DNA of 64,000 bases from Acidobacteriota bacterium (GTDB lineage: Bacteria; Acidobacteriota; UBA6911; RPQK01; JAJDTT01): contig OZ242374.1 of the NCBI GenBank assembly GCA_965209055.1, positions 1,696,001 to 1,760,000 on the forward strand. The letters run 5' to 3'. The notes beneath the pieces are model-generated. The model worked only from the letters and a program-made list of their open reading frames with translations. It did no database searches and had not been told where the DNA came from. Positions 17,625 through 27,724 of this stretch are shown here, piece by piece; the first letter of the stretch is position 1; the number at the start of each line of letters is the position of its first letter. The position numbers and the translations under genes were made by a program.

Positions 17625-18023
17625 CTACGCGGAAACTCGAGCGTCGCGATCTTTCTCACTGAAAGCCTTGATGGGGACGTCCAGAAGAATCTCCGAATAC
17701 GGTACACGCGGGACCACGCGGCCCCGATCTCCCTTTTCCAGACGCACCAGACCGTAACGCTCCATCGTGTGCAGCGTTCGGGACAGATTGGAACGGGCAC
17801 GCCCTGAGCGCTCGGCCAGTTCGGCAATCGAGGCCGGCTTCTCCTCCGTAATCATCCTTAGTAGCGCGCGGTTGCGATCGGACAGGACCTTGGCAAAGCT
17901 TTCGAGAGAAGGAAACCACACCTTGGGTTCGCCTCGTCCCGGCCGATGCTCGGCGCGCGCAATGGCCAAGGTTCAGGCCTCCATCTCTCCATAACCGGCA
18001 ATGCCGACTCGCAATGTCTTCAT
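17625..18023 (-). pseudogene. HTH antitoxin-like regulator with in-frame TGA at codon 17
   Basis: MKTLRVGIAGYGEMEA*TLAIAR...FPSLESFAKVLS...SIAELAERSGRARSNLSRTL; stop at 17973-17975. Confidence 0.7.
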
Positions 18024-18361
18024 GGCGTCACTCCGCTCTCTGCCAACACGGCCTCGACCTCCGTCCGGAAATCCGCAAGCAACTGGGCCGCATCGCGATA
18101 CTCATAGGGCCGGATGGTCCGATGACGGTGTCGGTGATCAGGGGCCAACCTCCGGCGTCCCGCCGGTCCCGCTGGCGAAGGGACCGGATGAGCGTCATCG
18201 AATCCGACCAGTCGCGTGCCTCCGGGTCCATGAAGCGTCAGCGCGTACATGAGCCTTTGTGGCTTCTCCAGGGTCGGAGGAATACGCTTGACGCGAAAGC
18301 GCACCCAGCGCTCCCCAGCCGGATCGATCACGAGAACCTCCTCGTCCAGATCCAAAAGCAT
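18020..18361 (-). CDS. Putative toxin partner (DUF6516/TumE-like); start uncertain
   Basis: YALTLHGPGGTRLVGFDDAH...DHRH; overlaps the start of the HTH gene. Confidence 0.55.
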   Translation of the reverse strand: MLLDLDEEVLVIDPAGERWVRFRVKRIPPTLEKPQRLMYALTLHGPGGTRLVGFDDAHPVPSPAGPAGRRRLAPDHRHRHRTIRPYEYRDAAQLLADFRTEVEAVLAESGVTP

Positions 18362-19968: not shown

Positions 19969-20559
19969 TCATCGGAGAACTGGAACCACGGGCAAGGTCG
20001 TGAAGATACGGTTGTCGGCGTCCATCTCCAGGGCCAACCCCGTGAACCTCCCGATGTCTGGCACGGTGCAGCGCACGGACCCCTCGAAGTCCGAAGTGAT
20101 GGTCTTGGCGAACAGCTCGTGGATGAACTGCGCCGTCTGTCCGTTGCCGGCTATTGAAATTTCCTGCTCTTCCAATGCCCTGCCGGCGCGCATCAGTTGG
20201 CATGTGACCTTGATCGCATTCTTCGTCAGGTTGCGGATGGCCATCCCTGTGCGAATTCCTCTGATTTGGTGTCGAGCCGGGAAGATTGCATCCTGGACGG
20301 CCTCACTGGCGCCGACTCCTGCGACGCCAATCTCTGGGTGGTCGAACCGCAGGAACCCACCGATTGGACCGTCTGCGACAACCTTCACCGAGCCAGTTGT
20401 CAGATCCCCCCGGCCGTGGGTGGAGATCGTGAGTTCCCCTAGTGGGACCAATGGCGTCTCCACGGTCAAGGCTCCATCGCTCTGGATCTTAAGGCCGATT
20501 ACCAGGTCCAACATCGCCTCAGGAGGAATGAGGGCTCCTTCACCGTCGTAGAATTGAAT
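19969..20559 (-). pseudogene. 3' fragment of the IS-interrupted LRR gene
   Basis: IQFYDGEG... continues in frame from ...GPIHPVIQ at 25361; second copy of the C-terminal domain of the LRR protein. Confidence 0.85.
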
Positions 20560-20598
20560 GGGGATTATACAGTTGACTAGGCACTCCTGCATTCCTGG

Positions 20599-20898
20599 TC
20601 ACTTGGGGTGAGCAATCTCGAAGCTCACGATCAAAGAAGCCTCGTGACTTTCCCCATCGCCCATCCTTTTGGCTTCTCGCAAAGCTCGGAACGCTCTTTC
20701 CATAACCGTGAGGTCCGCCCTCTCAAGTCTACGATTGTTGCAGATAGGACAACAATCGATGCTTTTTGCTCTGAAGGAAGGGCCAGGCCCTTTCAGTGAG
20801 AAGACCGTTTCGCCCTTACACTTTTCATCAGGGCAGATGACCCGCATCTTAAGAATGTCTTGAGCTCCGAAAACAATCCTTTTTTCCTTCACTATCAT
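20599..20898 (-). CDS. Small Cys-rich (possible Zn-ribbon) hypothetical cargo protein
   Basis: CPDEKC...CPIC; TATAAT and GGAGGT immediately upstream. Confidence 0.6.
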   Translation of the reverse strand: MIVKEKRIVFGAQDILKMRVICPDEKCKGETVFSLKGPGPSFRAKSIDCCPICNNRRLERADLTVMERAFRALREAKRMGDGESHEASLIVSFEIAHPK

Positions 20899-20926
20899 AC
20901 CTCCATTATACTAGTATTTTATACAG

Positions 20927-22543
20927 TTATTCGGAAGAATCAGGACACCCTTGTGGAGGATCAGATGCTGAAACGTTTACTGGATCAGTGTCTTTCCAAT
21001 ACGTCACCTTTGCTTCATAGAACTCAGAATAGTTCGGATGTTCAGGCAATTGGAGTTTGTAACCTCTAGGGTGTTTCCAAATGTCATCAGATGGCACCCG
21101 AATAGACTTCTTGTACCAAATAGGTGATCCAGCCCAAGGTCGTTGATAAGTCACTTCCACTGGATCTGCTTCTTCCATTCGTCGGTGATATGCACTGAGA
21201 TTTGGGTTGTCACTACTTGTTGAGCCGGAGAAGGAGCCCGAACCTCCTATCCTTTCGTGCAGGTGTAATTTGGCAGCGGCAAGGCATTGGCTTTCACCGT
21301 ATTCGGTAATCCAAAATATCTGAGCACCGGTTACATAATCGATTATTGGAGCATACCGAGAATTTTGGTGCGCTCGTCTTTTTCCCTCGTACGGAGGGGT
21401 AGGATAAATCTCAATCCTCTGCACGGCGGGTAGTTCTCCTGTTCTGTCTCTTCTAAAAGCTCCGACGTGGAGGGCTTCATCCCCGGAGACGTTATCAGGA
21501 GCATGAGTAGGGCCTACTCCACCATTTTGAGACAGGACATCCCACCAACCGCCTGGAGAACAATCATCTGGAGAAACGGGAGACGGCCCATCCCAAAAAC
21601 GACGCCAACGCAAAGCGTGCCAATCAGCGTTTCCTTGTTCTCGAGGAAACAACTCCAAAACCATTAAGGTTCGAGGCAGGTAGTCTAAATCGTTGTCTAC
21701 TTCAAGCAGATAGTTGGTGAACCTACCAACCACACGACGATTGACTCGATAGAATTCGGAACCCACATTGATCCCAAACTCATAGACTGGTATTACGATT
21801 TCATCAGTCAGGGTACGGACACACTCATGGGTCTCCAAAACTTTGGGATTTAGATGGTCGTATTCTTTAACGGGAGCCAAAGATGCTTCTACACGACTGC
21901 CACGACTGCATTGAGTCTCATCTAGGATAAAACGGTGTATGGAAGATGCTCCTGGACTCAATCCATAATCTCGTATTGGAAGGACGGTTTTGTCTCCGAC
22001 AGGAATGAAAGGCGTCGCAAAGTAACTGCCTGGGTTCTCAATTGGATCGTACTCGGTGATCCTCCATTGTTGGACGCCTTGACAGTCGTTTCCTTTGGTA
22101 TTCGCTTGGAGGTAAGAAAGATGGATAATCTGGCCGTCATGATGATCTTGGTCAAGATCAACACTTAAGTTACATTGCTCATGTATCATATGAGGGATGT
22201 CTCCGTAAGGAGTTGAGAAGACCCCTCCCTTCGCCCCTGTAAGAAACGCAAACGCAATCAAGACCCTCACAACCTTTTTCGATGTGGAGTTCTTTGATTC
22301 GTTCCGGTCCTTAATCCACAAGATAATAGCAATGAGCAAGGCAAAGGGCAGAGCAGTAAATACGAGTGTTGCTAAGATTGCAGCAATACCTAATCCGCTC
22401 AGTGTCAACCCGAGCAGGATAGATCCTAACGATCCGCTGGCGGCAAGTATGACACCACCTGCGATTATAAGAACTGCAACTAACCCGTGTATACCTTCCT
22501 TATTGTTGAGTATCCCTTCGCACATCTCCCGGAAATCTCGCAT
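20927..22543 (-). CDS. Hypothetical membrane-anchored cargo protein, 538 aa
   Basis: Long ORF in lower-GC DNA, RBS GAGGAGG, N-terminal hydrophobic helices; no family recognised. Confidence 0.65.
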   Translation of the reverse strand: MRDFREMCEGILNNKEGIHGLVAVLIIAGGVILAASGSLGSILLGLTLSGLGIAAILATLVFTALPFALLIAIILWIKDRNESKNSTSKKVVRVLIAFAFLTGAKGGVFSTPYGDIPHMIHEQCNLSVDLDQDHHDGQIIHLSYLQANTKGNDCQGVQQWRITEYDPIENPGSYFATPFIPVGDKTVLPIRDYGLSPGASSIHRFILDETQCSRGSRVEASLAPVKEYDHLNPKVLETHECVRTLTDEIVIPVYEFGINVGSEFYRVNRRVVGRFTNYLLEVDNDLDYLPRTLMVLELFPREQGNADWHALRWRRFWDGPSPVSPDDCSPGGWWDVLSQNGGVGPTHAPDNVSGDEALHVGAFRRDRTGELPAVQRIEIYPTPPYEGKRRAHQNSRYAPIIDYVTGAQIFWITEYGESQCLAAAKLHLHERIGGSGSFSGSTSSDNPNLSAYHRRMEEADPVEVTYQRPWAGSPIWYKKSIRVPSDDIWKHPRGYKLQLPEHPNYSEFYEAKVTYWKDTDPVNVSASDPPQGCPDSSE

Positions 22544-22581
22544 GACCCCTCCTCTCGACTTGGGTAGAATGGTGGGATGGA

Positions 22582-22674
22582 GGCAGGGTGGACGAAGATT
22601 GGATTAAGTCGCCCGACTGAAAATCGGGTAGGGTTGAAAGGCCCTCGCGGGTTCAACACCCGTCCCTGCCACCA
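22582..22674 (+). tRNA. Atypical long-variable-arm tRNA with GAA (Phe) anticodon
   Basis: GGCAGGG/CCCTGCC acceptor, GAC/GTC D-stem, CCCGA-CT GAA AA-TCGGG, V-arm AGGGTT-GAAA-GGCCCT, GCGGG-TTCAACA-CCCGT, A73, encoded CCA. Confidence 0.8.
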
Positions 22675-22704
22675 TCAAGCATCAATATATGATACTTCCC
22701 ATAT

Positions 22705-22968
22705 TCACAGGGGCCAGGTTGGGAACGGTGGAGGAGTCAGCCAGACACACTCATCATTGAAGATTCTCAATGTCCAGCCGTTTTCCTTCTCGCGGAACTT
22801 GGCATGAGCTCTCAACGCTCCTCGGTTGAGGGATTTCACTTTCCATAGCACCGCAGTCTCTTTCGAGAGTCTGGCCAGGTCGGCCCAGGTGATTGGGCCG
22901 TGGACTGACATGAGGTGATCGAGGAATCGAACGTGGTGTTTGAATTCGTGGGGTGCTTTGTGGGACAT
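22705..22968 (-). CDS. Small hypothetical cargo protein, 87 aa
   Basis: AGGAGA RBS before ATG 22968 (MSHKAPHEF...). Confidence 0.45.
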   Translation of the reverse strand: MSHKAPHEFKHHVRFLDHLMSVHGPITWADLARLSKETAVLWKVKSLNRGALRAHAKFREKENGWTLRIFNDECVWLTPPPFPTWPL

Positions 22969-23010
22969 CGACGGGTCTCCTACGCTGTCCAGGTGGAATC
23001 CACCGTGGAC

Positions 23011-23209
23011 TGTTGTCTGCAATCAGCACCCCAGTGCAGATAGGGAGCCGGGTCATCGCAGACAACGCATAGGAAGTCGGAAGTGCTCTTCCAGTCCCTG
23101 CCTATTCGCCCCGTCCGATTCATGACGTCGCACGGTTTATAATGCCTTTTGTATTTGGCAGGTGACCCGGCACAGGATGCGCCACGGGAAACCTACGGCT
23201 GTCTGCAAT
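23011..23209 (-). ncRNA. Predicted structured RNA unit, copy A
   Basis: Interleaved pairings GCAGACAGCCGTAGG/CCTATGCGTTGTCTGC and GCCGGGTCA/TGACCCGGC; conserved in copy B. Confidence 0.55.
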
Positions 23210-23373
23210 GCCGATCATAACAGACAGGACTGGAACGCTCAACTGCCGCTACTCTCGGGAACGGCTCCTCCCTACGCGGGGCAGAGCCCGCCATGATCGT
23301 GAGTCCAACAACCACCTCCTACGTTGCCCGAAAAATTAGCAATCAAAACCAAAATGGCGATGCCTCCGAGCGG

Positions 23374-23555
23374 GTTGTCTACGCCGACGATCCCACGTCT
23401 GCACATTGTGGGAGCCGGGTCATTGCAGACAACACGTAGGAAGTGAAGTTGCTACTTATTTACTCAGCAAGGTCATGACTCCTTGCGATTACGAGCTATT
23501 GCATTCAGTAGCTGACCCGGCACACTTGCGGGAGAACCCTTAGCGTTGTCTACGG
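23374..23555 (-). ncRNA. Predicted structured RNA unit, copy B
   Basis: 23410-23444 matches 23043-23077 at 32/35; same pairings with G-U variants. Confidence 0.55.
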
Positions 23556-23666
23556 GTGGATCTTACTGGAAGGAGGGCTGGATTGCAAACCCGCCCCACC
23601 CACAAAATTTTTCGAGCACTCGAAATACTTCTGAGGTTTGCAGTACAATACAGGTTACAACGAAGA

Positions 23667-23747
23667 TGGCAGGCGCCCCAGGCAGGATTCGAACCTGCAA
23701 CCTTCGGCTGCGATACCGTTGCTCATCCATCTGAGCTTCTGGGGCGC
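23667..23747 (-). ncRNA. tRNA-like RNA (Arg-like body, 6-nt anticodon loop containing TCG)
   Basis: GCTC-AGATGGAT-GAGC D-arm, GCAGG-TTCGAAT-CCTGC T-arm, 9 bp GCGCCCCAG/CTGGGGCGC stem; TATAAT at 23754-23759. Confidence 0.65.
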
Positions 23748-23864
23748 TTCGCCATTATAACCTACTCGGAGGGCAGAAAATGCGTCGTGGGAAGAACCGC
23801 AAGCCAGTTGACATTTTAGCCTTGGCAATGCAGAAAGCGCATCAGCAGGTCAGAGACGGGGACC

Positions 23865-24836
23865 TCAATTCTGAGACTCGTCCGACTCATCATCAGCAGT
23901 CAGATCAAGATACATCAGACGACGGCCGACCAGTCCCGCCACGATGTGCTTCATCTGATCAATAGTATCCAGCTCTCGGATATTGTGACGCTTGGCGAAC
24001 TCACTGACGTATCGGTGTAGGTGCTTTTCACTCATCTTGTGGAAAGTGCCCGTGTAGCCGCGTTTTAACATCGACCAAAAGGACTCCATGCCATTCGTGT
24101 GTGCCATGCCTCTGACATACTCGCCTACTGTGTGCTTGACAGATTCCCGTCTATGGCCCATCCAATCGTAGGCTGGATTCTCGTCTGTGTATGATCTCAC
24201 CCACAAGACAGAGTTTTCCAGGATGAACGTGGAAAGTGTTGCCTTGGTTGTATCGGGAACAACCCTAGCCCTGATCTGATTGGTCGGACGATCTTTCATT
24301 CCCACAACTGCGACTTTGCCAACAGACCCTCGACCAGAGAATTGAGCCCGGCGCTTGGCACTCATATTCCGCCTCTTGCCTCCAATGTAAGTCTCGTCAA
24401 TCTCCACCGGCCCGGACAGAGTCTCTGAGTCGTCCTCGGTCCAGGATTGCCGAAGTCGATGAAGCATGAACCACGCTGTGGCTTGTGTCACATCGATGTC
24501 TCGGTGGAGTTTCATTGAGGAGACTCCCTTGAGGTTCGTAATGTAGATGAAGATCGCCAAGGCCCATTTCTGTAACGGGACGTGGGATCTGGCCAAGGTC
24601 GTGCCAGTGCGGACTGAAAAGTAGCGCCGACAGTCAGAACACCAGTAAGGTTGAGGCCGTCGTTTCGGAGTCTCGTTCGTCTTGACGCTGCCGCAATGCC
24701 CACAGCATCGCTCATCGGGCCAGAGTACGGACTCGAACCATTTTTCCGCGGATTCCTCATCCGGGAACATCTTGAAAAGTTGGATCAGTGAGATTCCTTG
24801 TCGGTAAAACTTGCCTGGAGCTTTTGCTTTCTTCAT
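23865..24836 (-). CDS. IS1595-family transposase
   Basis: Zn finger CGHC...CSDC, VEIDETYIGG, YTDE, HTNGMESFWSMLKR. Confidence 0.95.
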   Translation of the reverse strand: MKKAKAPGKFYRQGISLIQLFKMFPDEESAEKWFESVLWPDERCCGHCGSVKTNETPKRRPQPYWCSDCRRYFSVRTGTTLARSHVPLQKWALAIFIYITNLKGVSSMKLHRDIDVTQATAWFMLHRLRQSWTEDDSETLSGPVEIDETYIGGKRRNMSAKRRAQFSGRGSVGKVAVVGMKDRPTNQIRARVVPDTTKATLSTFILENSVLWVRSYTDENPAYDWMGHRRESVKHTVGEYVRGMAHTNGMESFWSMLKRGYTGTFHKMSEKHLHRYVSEFAKRHNIRELDTIDQMKHIVAGLVGRRLMYLDLTADDESDESQN

Positions 24837-24966
24837 TGTCTCCCTCTCAATTTCCTGAACATTTTATCACAGGACCCTGACATTTTTCTGTAGTAAGTCC
24901 TTTGTTATGTTTAGTTTACACAGATTGTCGTGAGGGCAGTACAATAAAACATGATGGCGGAGGGAT

Positions 24967-25075
24967 GGACACAGCGGGGTACGATCCCGCGACCTCCCAG
25001 TTCTAAGTGCCCGTGGTAGGAAAAATTTTGGGCACCAGAGCCGGGTGTTCTGCCAGCATAAAGAACTATGCGGCC
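24967..25075 (-). ncRNA. tRNA-like RNA with 33-nt insertion in the anticodon loop
   Basis: GGCCGCA/TGTGTCC, GTTC/GAAC D-stem, CCCGG/CTGGG, AGGTC V-loop, GCGGG-ATCGTAC-CCCGC; TAGAAT at 25091-25096. Confidence 0.6.
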
Positions 25076-25127
25076 TTCGTCTCCGCCATCATTCTACCAG
25101 ATTTCCAAGGGGAAGGGAAGATGGTGA

Positions 25128-25292
25128 GGCGCAAAGATTCCTGGCTTTCGGCTCTCCCAAGTGGCTTTCTTGTGGCAAGGGCCTGGGCTGGGGTTACATG
25201 CCCTGGAAGATCGCATCAAACTGGGCGCAAAGATTCCTGGCCCGGGCCTGGGGGAACCTGAAGCTGGGCCTAGGCTGGGGTTACGCGCCCTG
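25128..25292 (+). repeat. Two tandem hairpin units with conserved arms and variable cores
   Basis: GGCGCAAAGATTCCTGGC at 25128 and 25224; GGGCCTRGGCTGGGGTTACRYGCCCTG at 25179 and 25266. Confidence 0.75.
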
Positions 25293-25358
25293 TTGACCAT
25301 CGTAGCGGGTTCGATGTCTTTGGTCAATCAGGGGTACCTAGTCAACTGTATAATCCCC

Positions 25359-27526
25359 AATTGAATGACTGGGTGAATCGGGCCCGATGCTACATTCACG
25401 AGCACCAAGTCGGAAGTGATGGAGGAACCGTTGGCGAAATGGGGGAAATGCAAATGCATGTTGTCCTGCGTGCGCATCGGTGGAACCGGAACCACGGGCA
25501 AGGTCGTGAAGATCCGGTTCTGGAAATCCATCTCCAAAGCCACACCGGTGAACAGAGAATCCTCGGGAGCCATGCACCGAACCGATCCCACGAAGTTCCC
25601 CGTATAGGTCTCGGGGAATAATTCATCAATGAACTGGGCCGTCTGGCCGTGTCCAGCCAGCGGGATATCCACGTCGCCACGCAAGTTGTTCCTTTGCGTC
25701 AGTTGGCAACTCACGGTGATCGGATCCTCTCCCCGGTTACGAATCGCCACTCCAGTATTGATTCCTGATTCTTGGCGCCGCACAGGGAAAATCGCGTCCT
25801 GTACGGCTATTCCCGTACCCACCCCGGCGACTCCCATGTCCGAGCTGTCAAAGCGCAGAACTCCCCCGATGGGACCGTCCGCCACAGCCCTTGCCGATCC
25901 CGTGACCAAATCCCCTCGGCCATGGGTCGAGATCGTGAGTTGTCCCAGGGGTTCTATTTCCTTCCGTACGGTCAGGGACCCGTCGGCCCGGATCAAACGA
26001 TCCTCTCCGACATCCACTATGGATGCCGGGTCTATGAGGTTTCCCTCGGCGTCGAAAAAGTAGAGGGCCGGCTGGATGGGAGTGGCTCCAACATTCACGA
26101 ACACCAACTCGGAGCGAATGGACGCCCCGTTGGCAAATTGGGAGAATTCCAAGGAAAGTCCTGCCAGTACAGTCAGCGGCTCGGCAGATCTGATAAACGT
26201 GTAACCAAGACTGCCCCCAAGCTGGAGCGGGAGCTGTGCGATCTCGACGGTGACCGGAGAAGTCGTTCCAGACTGTCGAGCCACCGAATAAACGTCGCTT
26301 GTCTCTCGCCCTGCGGGAATCGTGACGTGGGATGAATCCCCGCGAAGCATGCCGTTGGTTACAATGATCCGCAGACGGATCTCAAAGGGTGCGCCAGTAG
26401 GCACTCTAAGCTGGAATCGGCCTGGAGCCACCCATTCCATAAAAACGTTGATGAGTAGACGATGCGCCGGATTGTTTCTCATCGTGAAAATTTGCATGGA
26501 AGAGAGACCGAAGAAGATGCCATCTGGCAGGCTGGTCAGCCTATTGTTGTCCAGATAGAGAGTTCGTAGTGAGGAAAGACCGGAGAACGCTCCCGCCGGC
26601 AAACTAACCAGTTTATTCCCACTCAGTACAAGCAGTTGCAGTGTAGAAAGTTCAGCGAAGGCTCCTACCGGAAGGGTAGTCAGCGCACTGTCATTCAGGA
26701 GGAGAGTTCGTATTGAGGTGAGGCCGGAGAACGCTCCCGCCGGCAAGCTGGTCAATTCATTCCCGCCCAGATGGAGATGTATCAGCGAGGAGAGGCCGGT
26801 GAAGGCCCCCACCGGCAGGGTGGTCAGCGCATTGTGAGACAGGCGGAGAAGCTTTAGCGAGGAGAGGCCGGTGAAGGCCCCAGCTGACAGGTTCATCAGC
26901 CCGGTCAGCGGCGTGTTGGGAAAGGATGAGTTGGAAGCACTAGCCAGGTTGAGTTCTTGCAGTGAGGAGAGGCCGGTGAAGGTCCCCGCCATCAGCCCGG
27001 TTAGCTTAGTAAATGACAGGTTGAGTTCTTGCAACGAGGGGAGGCCGGTGAAGGCCCCAGCCGGCAGACTGGTCAACTTTGTACTAGACAGATCGAGAGT
27101 TTCCAGTGAGGAGAGCCCGGTGAACACTCCCGCCGGTAGAGTGGTAAGGGGAGTCAGGTTCAAATAGAGCGTTGTCACCGAAGAAAGTCCCGAGAAATCG
27201 CCGACTCTCAACGCTGTCACTGGTGGCGGCGGCCGTCGTTCGCGGCTGGGGTTGTTCCAATCGGGCGAAGAGTAATACCCGCCGTGAAAAAACTCGCCCT
27301 CAATCGCAGCCAGATGAACCTCGGTCACGTCGGTGCAATCATCTATCCCCGACACCAGACTCACGATCTCGTCGCGCACCTCCGGGGTCCTGTCGCAGAC
27401 GGGGACGATCTGAGCTACGACTGGCTCTGACGCGGCCAGCAGGCCCAAGCTCAAGGTGACGGTTAACAGCGAGCTTCTGGATCGCTGCCGGCAACGATGC
27501 AGAATCTTCGAAAAGTGGACTGACAT
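25359..27526 (-). pseudogene. Secreted leucine-rich-repeat protein, 5' part (interrupted by IS1595 element)
   Basis: RBS GGAGGAG, signal peptide, 24-aa LxxLPxGxFxGLxSLxxLxL repeats; the predicted ORF ends in TIR-derived LGIIQLTRYP. Confidence 0.85.
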
Positions 27527-27724
27527 CTGAATGGCTCCTCCAGGTAGACGGTAGCGGCTCATACTGTATTCAGGGATGCAGAGGGGCTCCTGCTGGCCGA
27601 ATTGTAGTCCGGCCCACCGATCCGGTGGCCCGGGGCCGTACCTCGTTTTTTCCTGATGGGGTCACCGAGTCAGGGGGGTGGCCACGATTTCGGGAGTCCC
27701 AAGTCACACCGAGGGAGATGGACG

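What the first reader, a model, noticed from the sequence alone, without database searches (positions are those of the whole stretch)
23011..23555. Duplicated RNA unit with pseudoknot topology and a competing helix
Seen: two copies with conserved ends and unrelated cores, except a shared TCATGAC. On the minus strand the order is B (GYAGACARC...AGG), A (TGTGCCGGGTCA), variable core, B' (CCTAYGYGTTGTCTGC), A' (TGACCCGGC), then B2 (GYAGACAAC). B-A-B'-A' is interleaved, and B2 could displace B. Differences in helix B read as G-U pairs only on the minus strand, downstream of the 23759 promoter. Inference: an unrecognised switch, ribozyme or scaffold with exchangeable inserts.
Basis: partly seen in the sequence, partly recalled or inferred. 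Interest (0 to 1): 0.8.

Follow-up and report, generated by a model that had tools for sequence, protein, structure and literature searches.

The report
Divergent sRNA-Xcc1-like leader RNAs
Two adjacent copies of a folded regulatory RNA sit inside a jumping gene; they are distant relatives of a known but poorly understood bacterial small RNA, and their pairing pattern suggests how that RNA class switches the next gene off.

Summary
Two about 180-nt units on the minus strand (23553-23374 and 23206-23012) carry the interleaved helices B:B' and A:A' plus a downstream B copy (B2). Their cores are not unrelated: they share two further helices with compensatory changes and conserved loops. A covariance model built from these units and one relative found 16 members in 7 of 61 related genomes. 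All four nested helices covary, and B:B' is present in 16 of 16 with different sequences. The units are not an unknown class. One relative hits Rfam sRNA-Xcc1 (RF02221) at 37 bits, below the 53-bit cut-off. A model built only from this family also finds bona fide sRNA-Xcc1 copies in prophage contigs. Each unit has its own promoter ending just before B. In the full leader, B' is predicted to pair with B2 plus the Shine-Dalgarno sequence of the 87-aa ORF. My best reading is a leader or small RNA whose anti-SD strand B' is contested by B and by B2/SD, as in the phage P1 C4 antisense RNA. The units are cargo of a 4.8-kb IS1595-family transposon that also carries irregular tRNA-like genes. I could not test expression.

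The parts
23560..23588 (-). Copy 1 promoter-like site: TTGCAA (23588-23583), 17 nt, TAAGAT (23565-23560); ends 6 nt before B
   Evidence: Read; coordinates. It has the same position as the -10 boxes before B in other members. The consensus scan did not list it.
23538..23553 (-). Copy 1 B, the 5' strand of P1 (GUAGACAACGCUAAGG)
   Evidence: Duplex with B' is -22.7 kcal/mol; 0 of 200 shuffles do as well.
23513..23521 (-). Copy 1 A (GCCGGGUCA), the 5' strand of the closing helix of the Xcc1-like domain
   Evidence: Helix 1 is 97.2% paired, with 4 of 9 pairs changed on both sides.
23451..23512 (-). Copy 1 helix C (23512-23507 with 23456-23451) enclosing hairpin D (23485-23468, loop AGUCAUGA) and the conserved GAAU..CAA and AAUAAG loop strands
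   Evidence: Helices 2 and 3.
23425..23440 (-). Copy 1 B' (CCUACGUGUUGUCUGC), the 3' strand of P1 and the proposed anti-SD seed
23414..23422 (-). Copy 1 A' (UGACCCGGC), 2 nt after B'
23391..23413 (-). Copy 1 hairpin E (UCCCAC ... GUGGGA)
   Evidence: (helix 4).
23374..23382 (-). Copy 1 B2 (GUAGACAAC)
23315..23325 (-). Copy 1 second half of the B mimic, with an SD-like AACGUAGGAGG; only a 40-aa ORF follows
   Evidence: D4.: -23.2 kcal/mol, 1 of 200 shuffles as good..
23214..23242 (-). Copy 2 promoter-like site TTGAGC-17-TATGAT with a TG extension; ends 7 nt before B
23192..23206 (-). Copy 2 B (GCAGACAGCCGUAGG)
23163..23171 (-). Copy 2 A (GCCGGGUCA)
23097..23162 (-). Copy 2 helix C (23162-23157 with 23102-23097) enclosing hairpin D (23135-23111, loop CGUCAUGAA)
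23058..23073 (-). Copy 2 B' (CCUAUGCGUUGUCUGC)
23047..23055 (-). Copy 2 A' (UGACCCGGC)
23029..23047 (-). Copy 2 hairpin E (CUCCC ... GGGG); its first base is shared with A'
23012..23020 (-). Copy 2 B2 (GCAGACAAC)
22977..22986 (-). Copy 2 second half of the B mimic, AGCGUAGGAG, which is the SD of the 87-aa ORF; the AUG lies 8 nt downstream
   Evidence: B' with B2 plus this site is -26.3 kcal/mol, 0 of 200 shuffles as good; it is paired in the minimum-free-energy fold.
22705..22968 (-). 87-aa ORF of unknown function, the gene proposed to be regulated
   Evidence: No Pfam, NCBIfam or PADLOC hit. Homologs in G001, G005, G028 and a paralog in the same genome. The G005 homolog also lies downstream of a unit.
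20560..25358 (.). IS1595-family transposon that carries the units. Its terminal inverted repeats start GGGGATTATACAGTTGACTAGG (20560-20581 and 25337-25358), and it is flanked by the 8-bp target duplication ATTCAATT (minus-strand reading) at 20552-20559 and 25359-25366
   Evidence: Transposase ORF 23865-24836(-) matches DDE_Tnp_IS1595 at 2e-35 and NF033547 at 4.9e-52.

Best explanation
Each unit is a promoter-proximal structured RNA of the sRNA-Xcc1 kind. A 9-bp G+C-rich helix (A:A') closes a domain made of helix C, hairpin D and conserved internal-loop strands. Between helix C and A' lies a 16-nt strand, B'. B' can pair with two rival partners. One is B, at the very 5' end of the transcript; this is P1, which is interleaved with A:A' and so has pseudoknot topology. 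The other is a split copy of B further downstream, B2 plus RCGUAGGAG, whose second half is the Shine-Dalgarno sequence of the next ORF. While B' is held by B, the ribosome-binding site is free. When B' moves to B2/SD, translation of the 87-aa ORF is blocked. Copy 1 has no credible ORF of its own but has the same B' specificity, so it would add a second, trans-acting dose of anti-SD RNA against the copy 2 leader. This is the logic of the phage P1/P7 C4 antisense RNA, where upstream a1/b1 sites, the RNA's a'/b' strands and downstream a2/b2 sites at the ribosome-binding site play the same three roles. Shown here: the helices and their covariation, the family, the relation to sRNA-Xcc1, the three-way complementarity and the predicted energies. 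Inferred: transcription, which conformer forms in the cell, what tips the balance, and any effect on translation.
For: (1) The family is real. Model R1, built from 3 sequences, found 16 matches in 7 of 61 genomes: the window's own genome plus 6 of 14 in its family, and 0 of 46 outside that family.

(2) The nested helices covary. 94.8% of cells are paired, and 16 of 25 pairs change on both sides. 0 of 500 shuffles reach any of the five measures. Slid controls give 30-54% paired.

(3) P1 is general. B:B' duplexes of -14.7 to -33.4 kcal/mol occur in 16 of 16 members, and 12 of 16 are beaten by 0 of 200 shuffles. In the cross-matrix, the cognate B, or a B from the same specificity group, is the best partner in 16 of 16 rows. 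The window's two copies cross-pair at -26.2 and -27.6 kcal/mol.

(4) B' also pairs with the downstream site. Values are -26.3 (0 of 200 shuffles as good) for copy 2, -23.2 (1 of 200) for copy 1, -26.7 (1 of 200) for L072 and -20.1 (0 of 200) for L085. The B' of copy 1 pairs with the downstream region of copy 2 at -27.0 kcal/mol.

(5) The full-leader minimum-free-energy fold has B' on B2 plus the SD. For copy 2 this is -107.8 against -93.7 kcal/mol with P1 forced; for copy 1 it is -92.0 against -79.4. A transcript that stops before the SD folds into P1.

(6) The family is related to sRNA-Xcc1. L072 hits RF02221 over the whole model at 37 bits, E 4e-5. Model R2, built only from this family, hits 16 of 80 prophage loci at E up to 1, and 8 of them below 0.01. 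Of the 11 of those 16 loci that were among the 12 sent to Rfam, all 11 R2 hits lie on an RF02221 match of 54.7-83.6 bits.

(7) The same logic appears in bona fide sRNA-Xcc1. Across 84 units with distinct B' regions, the cognate downstream duplex averages -19.6 against -15.0 kcal/mol for non-cognate pairs. Its median rank is 11 of 84, and it ranks in the top 3 in 22 of 84. In 10 of 16 inspected units the best site ends within 3 nt of an ATG or GTG.

(8) In prophage contig L150, one C4 RNA and six sRNA-Xcc1 matches lie in one array. The C4 RNA and five of the sRNA-Xcc1 copies each precede a paralogous ORF that begins M(T/S)QLP.AVCFSGKSLSIIDRDG.

(9) Published contexts agree. sRNA-Xcc1 lies upstream of symE in integron cassettes (passages of bioRxiv 10.1101/2025.06.18.660453). 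It lies upstream of an ORF6N gene in APSE phage (passages of 10.1101/2020.03.17.996009). Five copies about 381 nt apart occur in a Xylella island (passages of PMC12189769).
Against: In this family the pairing of B' with a downstream site beats shuffles in only 4 of 16 members. In the other 12 it does not; there 12 to 195 of 200 shuffles do as well. The anti-SD step is therefore not a family-wide property here, whereas P1 is.

The energy comparison ignores the A:A' pseudoknot and co-transcriptional folding.

The window copies do not match RF02221 at E up to 10. They also replace its small ACCC-GNAA-GGGG hairpin with a longer hairpin that has a UCAUGA loop.

The R2 hits on bona fide sRNA-Xcc1 are weak (16.7-27.2 bits), and those loci were chosen with a motif that overlaps the model's AAUACAA.

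sRNA-Xcc1 is described in print as an 88-nt trans-acting sRNA with mapped ends (passages of PMC2996969), not as a leader.

The ranks are not independent, because many prophage loci are kin.

The alignment used was fitted to the model.
Confidence: 0.55

Rival explanations
1. The unit is a riboswitch-like sensor. The domain enclosed by P1 (A, C, D and the conserved GAAU..CAA, GAAUAAG and UCAUGA loops) binds a small molecule or a protein. Binding fixes P1, keeps B' away from the SD and turns translation on.
For: The layout is that of an ON switch: a closing helix P1 whose 3' strand is also the anti-SD. The invariant unpaired strands lie inside covarying helices. The same leader precedes unrelated genes, including HIRAN, TM2/zinc-ribbon and HNH-SH3 proteins and secreted proteins, as expected for a shared signal.
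Against: P1 is 15-19 bp, far longer than a typical switching P1. No ligand is suggested by the gene set. Many bona fide sRNA-Xcc1 units lack an upstream B: the median upstream rank is 36 of 84, close to chance. The hairpin D loop differs between subgroups, UCAUGA in the transposon copies and GGGUAGCUCCC in the chromosomal ones.
Confidence: 0.15
2. The unit is a free-standing trans-acting sRNA, as sRNA-Xcc1 is described in print. It would be processed or terminated after hairpin E and act on mRNAs elsewhere. On this reading B and B2 are leftovers of tandem duplication.
For: sRNA-Xcc1 was seen as a single band of about 100 nt with mapped ends (passages of PMC2996969). Copy 1 has no credible ORF. 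Arrays of units without complete ORFs exist.
Against: B, B' and B2 change together between loci, from GYAGACAAC in the window to AGUGCUC in G005. Duplication leftovers would not do that. No U-tract terminator follows hairpin E in either copy. In the bona fide family the cognate downstream sites rank high.
Confidence: 0.12
3. The unit is a processing and stability element. A:A' with an invariant U at -1, a G:C first pair and a 3' N-C-C imitates a tRNA acceptor end and is cut by RNase P, as recalled for the C4 precursor. On this reading P1 is only the precursor fold.
For: In 16 of 16 members the base before A is U, the first A:A' pair is G:C, and CC follows one base after A'. C4 and sRNA-Xcc1 occupy equivalent places in one array. 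The statement that RNase P processes C4 is recalled, not checked in any call here.
Against: The two C after A' are also the invariant pairs of hairpin E, which explains their conservation without RNase P. The Rfam C4 model gave no hit at these loci. This rival is compatible with the best explanation rather than exclusive of it.
Confidence: 0.08
4. The repeats are DNA-level sites: binding or recombination sites for the transposase or another recombinase, or an invertible segment.
For: The repeats lie inside a transposon, and B/B'/B2 are short inverted and direct repeats.
Against: Four further helices covary, and the G-U pairs fit one strand only. There is a promoter directly before B. The family is related to an RNA with mapped ends. 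Other family members lie outside transposons. The transposon's own inverted repeats are unrelated in sequence.
Confidence: 0.02

Closest known systems
sRNA-Xcc1 (Rfam RF02221), first described in Xanthomonas campestris pv. campestris 8004
   Same: Both have a G+C-rich closing helix, then an inner helix with AAUACAA and GAAUA loop strands, a small inner hairpin, a variable strand before the 3' half of the closing helix, and a C-rich tail that starts a hairpin. Both occur in mobile DNA, in tandem copies about 350-380 nt apart, and directly upstream of small ORFs (passages of PMC12189769, 10.1101/2025.06.18.660453 and 10.1101/2020.03.17.996009).
   Different: The window copies score nothing against RF02221, and the best relative reaches 37 of the 53 bits required. 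The domain here is about 134-146 nt rather than 87. Hairpin D is longer, with a UCAUGA or GGGUAGCUCCC loop. A 15-19 bp 5' helix P1 is present in all 16 members, whereas an upstream partner is seen only in a minority of bona fide units. I did not determine the host's taxon. The sRNA-Xcc1 hosts named in the passages I read are Xanthomonas, Xylella, Hamiltonella APSE phage and E. coli.
C4 antisense RNA of phages P1/P7 (Rfam RF01695) with its a1/b1 and a2/b2 target sites (RF03163)
   Same: It is a small structured RNA made from the leader of the operon it represses. Its exposed strands match one site upstream and one site at the ribosome-binding site downstream, and the sequence of these strands sets specificity (recalled knowledge of the immI region). 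In L150 a C4 copy and sRNA-Xcc1 copies precede paralogous antirepressor-like ORFs.
   Different: There is no sequence or model match: RF01695 gave no hit at these loci in the window's own genome. C4 pairs through two loops, whereas here one continuous 16-nt strand pairs with a split target. No antirepressor gene follows the window's units.
Translational riboswitches and RNA switches with a P1 / anti-SD / SD three-strand design
   Same: They share the arrangement of three mutually exclusive strands, with a structured domain enclosed by P1.
   Different: No ligand is known or suggested. P1 is much longer than in known riboswitches. An extra helix (A:A') crosses P1.

Membership tests
sRNA-Xcc1 (RF02221) | Score at or above Rfam's gathering cut-off of 53 bits | tested here: not met
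   The window copies give no RF02221 match at E up to 10. In 15 genomes of the family the best score is 37 bits, at G010/L072, and none exceeds the cut-off.
sRNA-Xcc1 (RF02221) | Architecture: closing helix, inner helix with AAUACAA/GAAUA loop strands, inner hairpin, variable strand, 3' C-rich tail | tested here: met
   L072 aligns to the whole RF02221 model, positions 1-87. The window copies align with L072 under R1 and R2. Copy 2 has AAAUACAAAA and GAAUAGG; copy 1 has GAAUGCAAUA and AAAUAAG.
sRNA-Xcc1 (RF02221) | Reciprocal detection: a model of the new family finds accepted members | tested here: met
   R2 hits 16 of 80 prophage loci at E up to 1, with a best E of 5.9e-4. Eleven of these 16 loci were among the 12 sent to Rfam, and there all 11 R2 hits lie on RF02221 matches of 54.7-83.6 bits. 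The hits are weak, and the loci were pre-selected with a motif that overlaps the model.
sRNA-Xcc1 (RF02221) | The small ACCC-GNAA-GGGG inner hairpin of the consensus | tested here: not met
   It is replaced by a longer hairpin D with a UCAUGA loop in the window and G005 copies, or a GGGUAGCUCCC loop in most chromosomal copies.
sRNA-Xcc1 (RF02221) | A discrete transcript of about 88 nt with mapped ends | not testable with these tools
   No RNA run is listed for this stretch. The ends were mapped only in Xcc 8004 (passages of PMC2996969).
C4 antisense RNA (RF01695) | Match to the C4 model | tested here: not met
   In the window's own genome there were 5 matches at E 1.6-8.5, and none lies at the units.
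C4 antisense RNA (RF01695) | Seed complementary to one upstream site and one site at the ribosome-binding site downstream in the same transcript | tested here: met
   This holds for the window copies, for B:B' and for B':B2+SD. It concerns how the unit works, not membership.
H-type pseudoknot | Two interleaved helices, each supported by covariation | tested here: met
   A:A' is helix 1. B:B' is present in 16 of 16 members with different sequences. The order B, A, B', A' holds in all of them.
H-type pseudoknot | Both helices form at the same time | not testable with these tools
   The folding programs used exclude pseudoknots. The 0-2 nt between B' and A' and the roughly 10-15 nt between B and A make a coaxial stack unlikely; this is geometric reasoning, not a computation.
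Riboswitch | Direct binding of a ligand that changes the fold | not testable with these tools
   No computation is available; see the rival explanation.
IS1595-family transposon (context) | DDE_Tnp_IS1595 transposase, terminal inverted repeats, 8-bp target duplication | tested here: met
   Transposase: PF12762 at 2e-35 and NF033547 at 4.9e-52. Inverted repeats: 31 nt, 94% complementary. Target duplication: ATTCAATT on both sides. The statement that 8 bp is typical of IS1595 is recalled.

The most novel reading that the evidence does not exclude
The whole sRNA-Xcc1 superfamily, filed in Rfam as a trans-acting sRNA of unknown mechanism, may be a widespread programmable cis/trans antisense module of mobile elements, working like phage P1 C4. 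On this reading an exposed strand (B') with locus-specific sequence blocks the ribosome-binding site of the gene just downstream, such as an antirepressor, symE, or here the 87-aa ORF. An optional upstream decoy (B) masks the strand, and extra tandem copies raise the dose. The window would then show its most elaborate form, with a 5' P1 pseudoknotted to the closing helix, in a lineage and on a carrier (a tRNA-laden IS1595 transposon) where it has not been reported.
Probability: 0.4. Interest if true: 0.65.

Novelty: new variant of a known kind. Interest (0 to 1): 0.55.

Why it matters
sRNA-Xcc1 is annotated in many genomes, prophages, integron cassettes and genomic islands. In the papers I could search, however, it is treated as a trans-acting sRNA with predicted targets only (24 papers, 14 papers holding at least 2 of 4 terms; passages read from five of them). 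The three-way complementarity seen here, and again in 84 bona fide units, gives a concrete and testable mechanism, and it links sRNA-Xcc1 functionally to the C4 immunity RNA. If this holds, hundreds of 'sRNA-Xcc1' annotations become predicted translational repressors of the adjacent gene, with a readable specificity code. The window's branch adds a covariation-supported pseudoknotted 5' helix and extends the family beyond what the Rfam model detects.

Tried and rejected
Exact junction pattern. I scanned for GTTGTCTGCNATGACCCGG. It gave 32 stretches in genome contigs and 4 in viral contigs. None of the 36 had the partner motifs, so all are chance matches. About 17 matches are expected by chance for 18 fixed bases; this is my estimate.

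Two-block pattern. I scanned for TGTGYCGGGTCN{85,115}GACCCGGCTCCC. It gave 2 metagenome contigs, both G+C-rich stretches without any other feature of the unit, and 0 viral contigs.

BLAST of the 561-nt region. The window's own genome gave only the locus itself. In 41 genomes it gave only one 31-nt match, in G010; the model later showed this match to be a true unit.

Other checks in the genome. The paralogous IS1595 loci in the window's genome have no unit motifs. Two loose regular-expression scans were either empty or too noisy to use.

Other explanations considered from the anatomy alone and set aside, with no separate test: integron attC site (R''/R' cores do not fit and the helices are interleaved, not nested), retron msr/msd (no reverse transcriptase nearby), bridge or omega RNAs (no IS110, IscB or TnpB gene), T-box, group I intron, HDV-like ribozyme (the element order does not fit and there is no Rfam hit), and target-site duplication of a small mobile element (the inner B' covaries with the flanking copies).

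Searches for accepted members elsewhere. RF02221 gave no match in five named proteobacterial and actinobacterial genomes reached through chance loci. RF01695 gave no hit at the units.

Function of the cargo proteins. The 87-aa, 538-aa and 99-aa proteins gave nothing usable: no Pfam hit, one PHROG of unknown function at E 0.007, one PADLOC hit at E 0.0087, no NCBIfam hit, and for the 87-aa protein a best ESM Atlas score of 0.87 to unnamed clusters.

Expression. No RNA holder is listed for window:22900-23900, so I did not use read laying. This is no evidence either way.

The 2011 RNA Biology paper on sRNA-Xcc1 (PMC3256417) is not held, so I did not see its alignment and any statement about flanking complementarity.
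Full report
WHAT IS THERE

On the minus strand, two units lie head to tail. Copy 1 runs from 23553 to 23374 and copy 2 from 23206 to 23012. Each has B, then A (GCCGGGUCA), a core, B', A' (UGACCCGGC) 2 nt later, a short hairpin E, and B2. B2 repeats the first 9 nt of B, with one changed base in copy 2.

The motifs are far above chance. GYAGACARC occurs 7 times against 1.11 expected, and GCCGGGTCA 7 times against 1.26.

Three things need correcting. First, the cores are homologous. Right after A comes helix C (GCUACU/AGUAGC in copy 1, CCUGCC/GGCAGG in copy 2). Inside it sits a hairpin D with UCAUGA in its loop, flanked by conserved strands GAAU..CAA and GAAUA(A)G. Second, the repeat extends to a Shine-Dalgarno-like GTAGGAG (D4). 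Third, each copy has its own promoter-like site ending 6-7 nt before B (for copy 2; read by eye for copy 1, located).

SURROUNDINGS

The units are cargo of a 4.8-kb IS1595-family transposon at 20560-25358.
- It has 31-nt terminal inverted repeats that are 94% complementary.
- It has an 8-bp target duplication, ATTCAATT.
- It has one transposase ORF, 23865-24836(-).
- It sits inside a gene whose two halves are the 744-aa and 207-aa ORFs.
- G+C falls from about 63% to 51-54% across the 20001-26000 bins, which cover the element.

On the minus strand the order is: a weak tRNA-like stretch, the transposase, a tRNA-like gene (23745-23674), copy 1, copy 2, the 87-aa ORF, an 88-nt 'tRNA-Phe' on the other strand, a 538-aa ORF and a 99-aa ORF.

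A related 8.6-kb transposon in a genome of the same genus (G005, locus L064) has similar inverted repeats and a transposase. It also has an array of tRNAs, one unit, a homolog of the 87-aa protein and a homolog of the 538-aa protein at 35% identity.

A REAL RNA FAMILY

The G005 unit keeps the architecture but changes the sequence. A:A' is GUCGGGUCU/AGACCCGGC, with one compensatory and one wobble change. Helix C is UUGCU/AGCAA and hairpin D is GCGUGG/CCGCGC. B, B' and B2 are entirely different (AGUGCUC, GAGCACU, GAGUGCUC) but still match each other.

Model R1 was built on these three sequences, using helices A, C, D and E. It found 16 matches in 7 of 61 related genomes, all in the window's taxonomic family and none in 46 other genomes of the order. 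Two further copies lie elsewhere in the window's own genome.

On the 16-member alignment, 94.8% of cells are paired and 16 of 25 pairs change on both sides. No shuffle out of 500 reaches the observed values, and slid controls give 30-54% paired. The alignment was fitted to the model, which favours the structure.

P1 (B:B') could not be put in the same model because it crosses A:A'. I tested it sequence by sequence instead. Duplexes of -14.7 to -33.4 kcal/mol are present in 16 of 16 members, and in 12 of 16 none of 200 shuffles does as well. In an all-against-all matrix, the cognate B, or a B from the same specificity group, is the best partner of each B' in 16 of 16 rows. B' ends 0-2 nt before A' in all members. 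The interleaved topology is therefore conserved and selected.

Model R2, built from the 16 members, also found shorter versions in 3 of 148 genomes of other families of the phylum.

RELATION TO A KNOWN FAMILY

The window copies match nothing in Rfam 15 at E up to 10. The unit in G010 (L072), which lacks the long hairpin D, aligns to the whole sRNA-Xcc1 model (RF02221) at 37 bits, E 4e-5 in a 321-nt search and 2.5e-4 per genome. This is below the 53-bit cut-off. The aligned features are our A:A', helix C, the AAUACAA and GAAUA strands, a small hairpin, and the C-rich tail.

To test this link I took a 21-nt motif from the consensus printed and scanned viral contigs. More than 107 stretches matched. 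All 12 loci that I sent to Rfam carry RF02221 above the cut-off, at 54.7-83.6 bits. R2, which has seen no proteobacterial or phage sequence, hit 16 of the 80 listed loci at E up to 1, 8 of them below 0.01. Eleven of those 16 loci were among the 12 sent to Rfam, and there all 11 R2 hits lie on an RF02221 match. R2 aligned parts that were not in the selecting motif: U.UG.CGGG, CCCG.C, and the CACCC...GGGU hairpin.

I conclude that the window's units belong to a divergent branch of the sRNA-Xcc1 kind. By Rfam's own criterion they are not members.

HOW IT PROBABLY WORKS

In the window, B' has two partners. A transcript that ends before the SD folds with B:B'. The full copy 2 leader has its minimum-free-energy fold with B' on B2 plus AGCGUAGGAG, the SD of the 87-aa ORF. 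That fold is -107.8 kcal/mol, against -93.7 with P1 forced. Copy 1 behaves the same way, at -92.0 against -79.4. These figures leave out the pseudoknot.

The B'-downstream duplex beats shuffles in copy 2 (0 of 200 as good), copy 1 (1 of 200), L072 (1 of 200) and L085 (0 of 200). In L072 and L085 the target again includes the SD. It does not beat shuffles in the other 12 members. The anti-SD step is thus clear for the window but is not general in this family, whereas P1 is general.

The two window copies share one specificity. The B' of copy 1 pairs with the downstream site of copy 2 at -27.0 kcal/mol, better than with its own. Copy 1 is followed only by a 40-aa ORF.

The same logic shows in bona fide sRNA-Xcc1. 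In 16 inspected units, the strand before A' matches a split site that ends within 3 nt of an ATG or GTG in 10 cases, and matches an upstream site in the five units of one array. Across 84 units with distinct strands, the cognate downstream duplex averages -19.6 against -15.0 kcal/mol for non-cognate pairs. It has a median rank of 11 of 84 and is in the top 3 in 22 cases, where about 3 are expected. These loci are kin, so this is not a clean statistic.

In contig L150 one C4 antisense RNA and six sRNA-Xcc1 matches lie in one array. The C4 RNA and five of the sRNA-Xcc1 copies stand in equivalent positions before paralogous antirepressor-like ORFs or their 5' fragments.

As I recall it, C4 is made from the leader of the operon it represses. 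It pairs with a site at the ribosome-binding site downstream and has a second matching site upstream. Rfam lists 'a1, b1 targets of C4 antisense RNA' as a family. The window's B, B' and B2/SD map onto that scheme.

What sets the balance between the two conformers is unknown. Candidates are co-transcriptional trapping of P1, a factor that binds the conserved loops, removal of B by processing, or the dose of copy 1. One further observation may bear on processing. In 16 of 16 members the base before A is U, the first A:A' pair is G:C, and CC follows one base after A'. This resembles a tRNA acceptor end, but the CC are also pairs of hairpin E.

GENES SERVED

Downstream genes differ from member to member: HIRAN-domain proteins (3), TM2/zinc-ribbon membrane proteins (3), small zinc-ribbon proteins (2), an HNH-SH3 protein, three proteins with no Pfam family (two or more of which look secreted or membrane-bound by their N-termini), and the 87-aa protein and its homolog. 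Published contexts for sRNA-Xcc1 are symE, an ORF6N protein and tandem arrays in an island (passages of 10.1101/2025.06.18.660453, 10.1101/2020.03.17.996009 and PMC12189769). The 87-aa protein has no recognisable family.

WHAT IS KNOWN AND WHAT IS NEW

sRNA-Xcc1 was found as an 88-nt RNA in Xcc 8004 (passages of PMC2996969) and is cited as a trans-acting sRNA under HrpG/HrpX control; I saw the 2011 paper only as a reference, because it is not held. Two full-text searches found no paper that describes it as a cis-acting anti-RBS leader or links it to C4. One search found 24 papers that hold the name. One search found 14 that hold at least two of sRNA-Xcc1, C4 antisense, antirepressor and isrK. 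I read passages of five papers, not whole texts, and supplements were closed.

The finding is therefore a new variant of a known kind. The new features are a larger domain, a universal pseudoknotted 5' helix, and an IS1595 carrier. It also yields a mechanistic hypothesis that may apply to the whole kind.

LIMITS

No expression data could be obtained. All energies come from nested-structure models. The E-values of R1 and R2 are rough. I did not determine the taxon of the organism.

Noticed in passing
window 20552-25366: A 4.8-kb IS1595-family transposon with 31-nt inverted repeats and the 8-bp duplication ATTCAATT is inserted in a gene for an LRR protein with repeated C-terminal domains. The 744-aa ORF (25328-27562, minus) continues in the 207-aa ORF (19969-20592, minus).
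   Followed up: yes
window 23674-23745(-), 22587-22674(+), 24966-25075(-): The transposon holds three irregular tRNA-like genes. The first scores 48 bits as tRNA in Rfam, is not called by ARAGORN and has an odd 6- or 8-nt anticodon loop. The second is an 88-nt 'tRNA-Phe(GAA)' with a long variable arm. The third is a 110-nt stretch at 29.3 bits. They resemble the irregular and allo-tRNAs that Mukai et al. found near transposon-related and toxin-antitoxin genes (passages of PMC5389517).
   Followed up: partly
L057 332-7796 (own genome) and L064 2441-11077 (G005): Two more IS1595-family transposons have similar ends (GGGGAYTAYA...) and carry tRNA cargo. L057 has tRNA-Ser(AGA) twice plus tRNA-Gly(GCC). 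L064 has tRNA-Ala(AGC/CGC/GGC) as 100-nt repeats, two 91-nt tRNA-Leu(CAG) that score as tRNA-Sec-like (34-37 bits), and an 89-nt tRNA-Phe(GAA). tRNA-laden transposons seem to be a theme in this genus.
   Followed up: partly
L071, L073, L076, L078, 40-160 nt after the unit: A second conserved element lies between the Xcc1-like domain and the ORF in four members. It contains ...CUCUGAGCCAAC..G.CCUGUG.... It is absent from the window's copies. I did not model it.
   Followed up: no
L150 7577-10143: A prophage contig has an array of isrK, C4 and six sRNA-Xcc1 matches. Four of the sRNA-Xcc1 copies are about 382 nt apart. The C4 RNA and five of the sRNA-Xcc1 copies are each followed by the first 45 or so codons of an antirepressor-like gene, and only the last gene is complete (197 aa). 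This is the same 'leader plus gene stump' duplication as copy 1 in the window.
   Followed up: partly
window 25130-25300(-): A direct repeat of about 70 nt (...GTAACCCCAGCCYAGGCCC...CCAGGAATCTTTGCGCC) lies between the right transposon end and the weak tRNA-like stretch.
   Followed up: no
window 17625-18361(-): A TumE toxin-like ORF (PF20126, 5.3e-6) sits next to an HVO_A0114/HTH ORF. This is a likely toxin-antitoxin pair about 2 kb outside the transposon.
   Followed up: no
window 23605-23630: The palindrome TTTCGAG TG CTCGAAA followed by AATTTT lies between the tRNA-like gene and the promoter of copy 1. It may be a terminator that separates the two transcription units. The scan did not call it.
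   Followed up: no
L128 2666-2812: An RT-14 RNA (Rfam RF02921, 49 bits) lies 1.2 kb upstream of a bona fide sRNA-Xcc1 in a viral contig.
   Followed up: no
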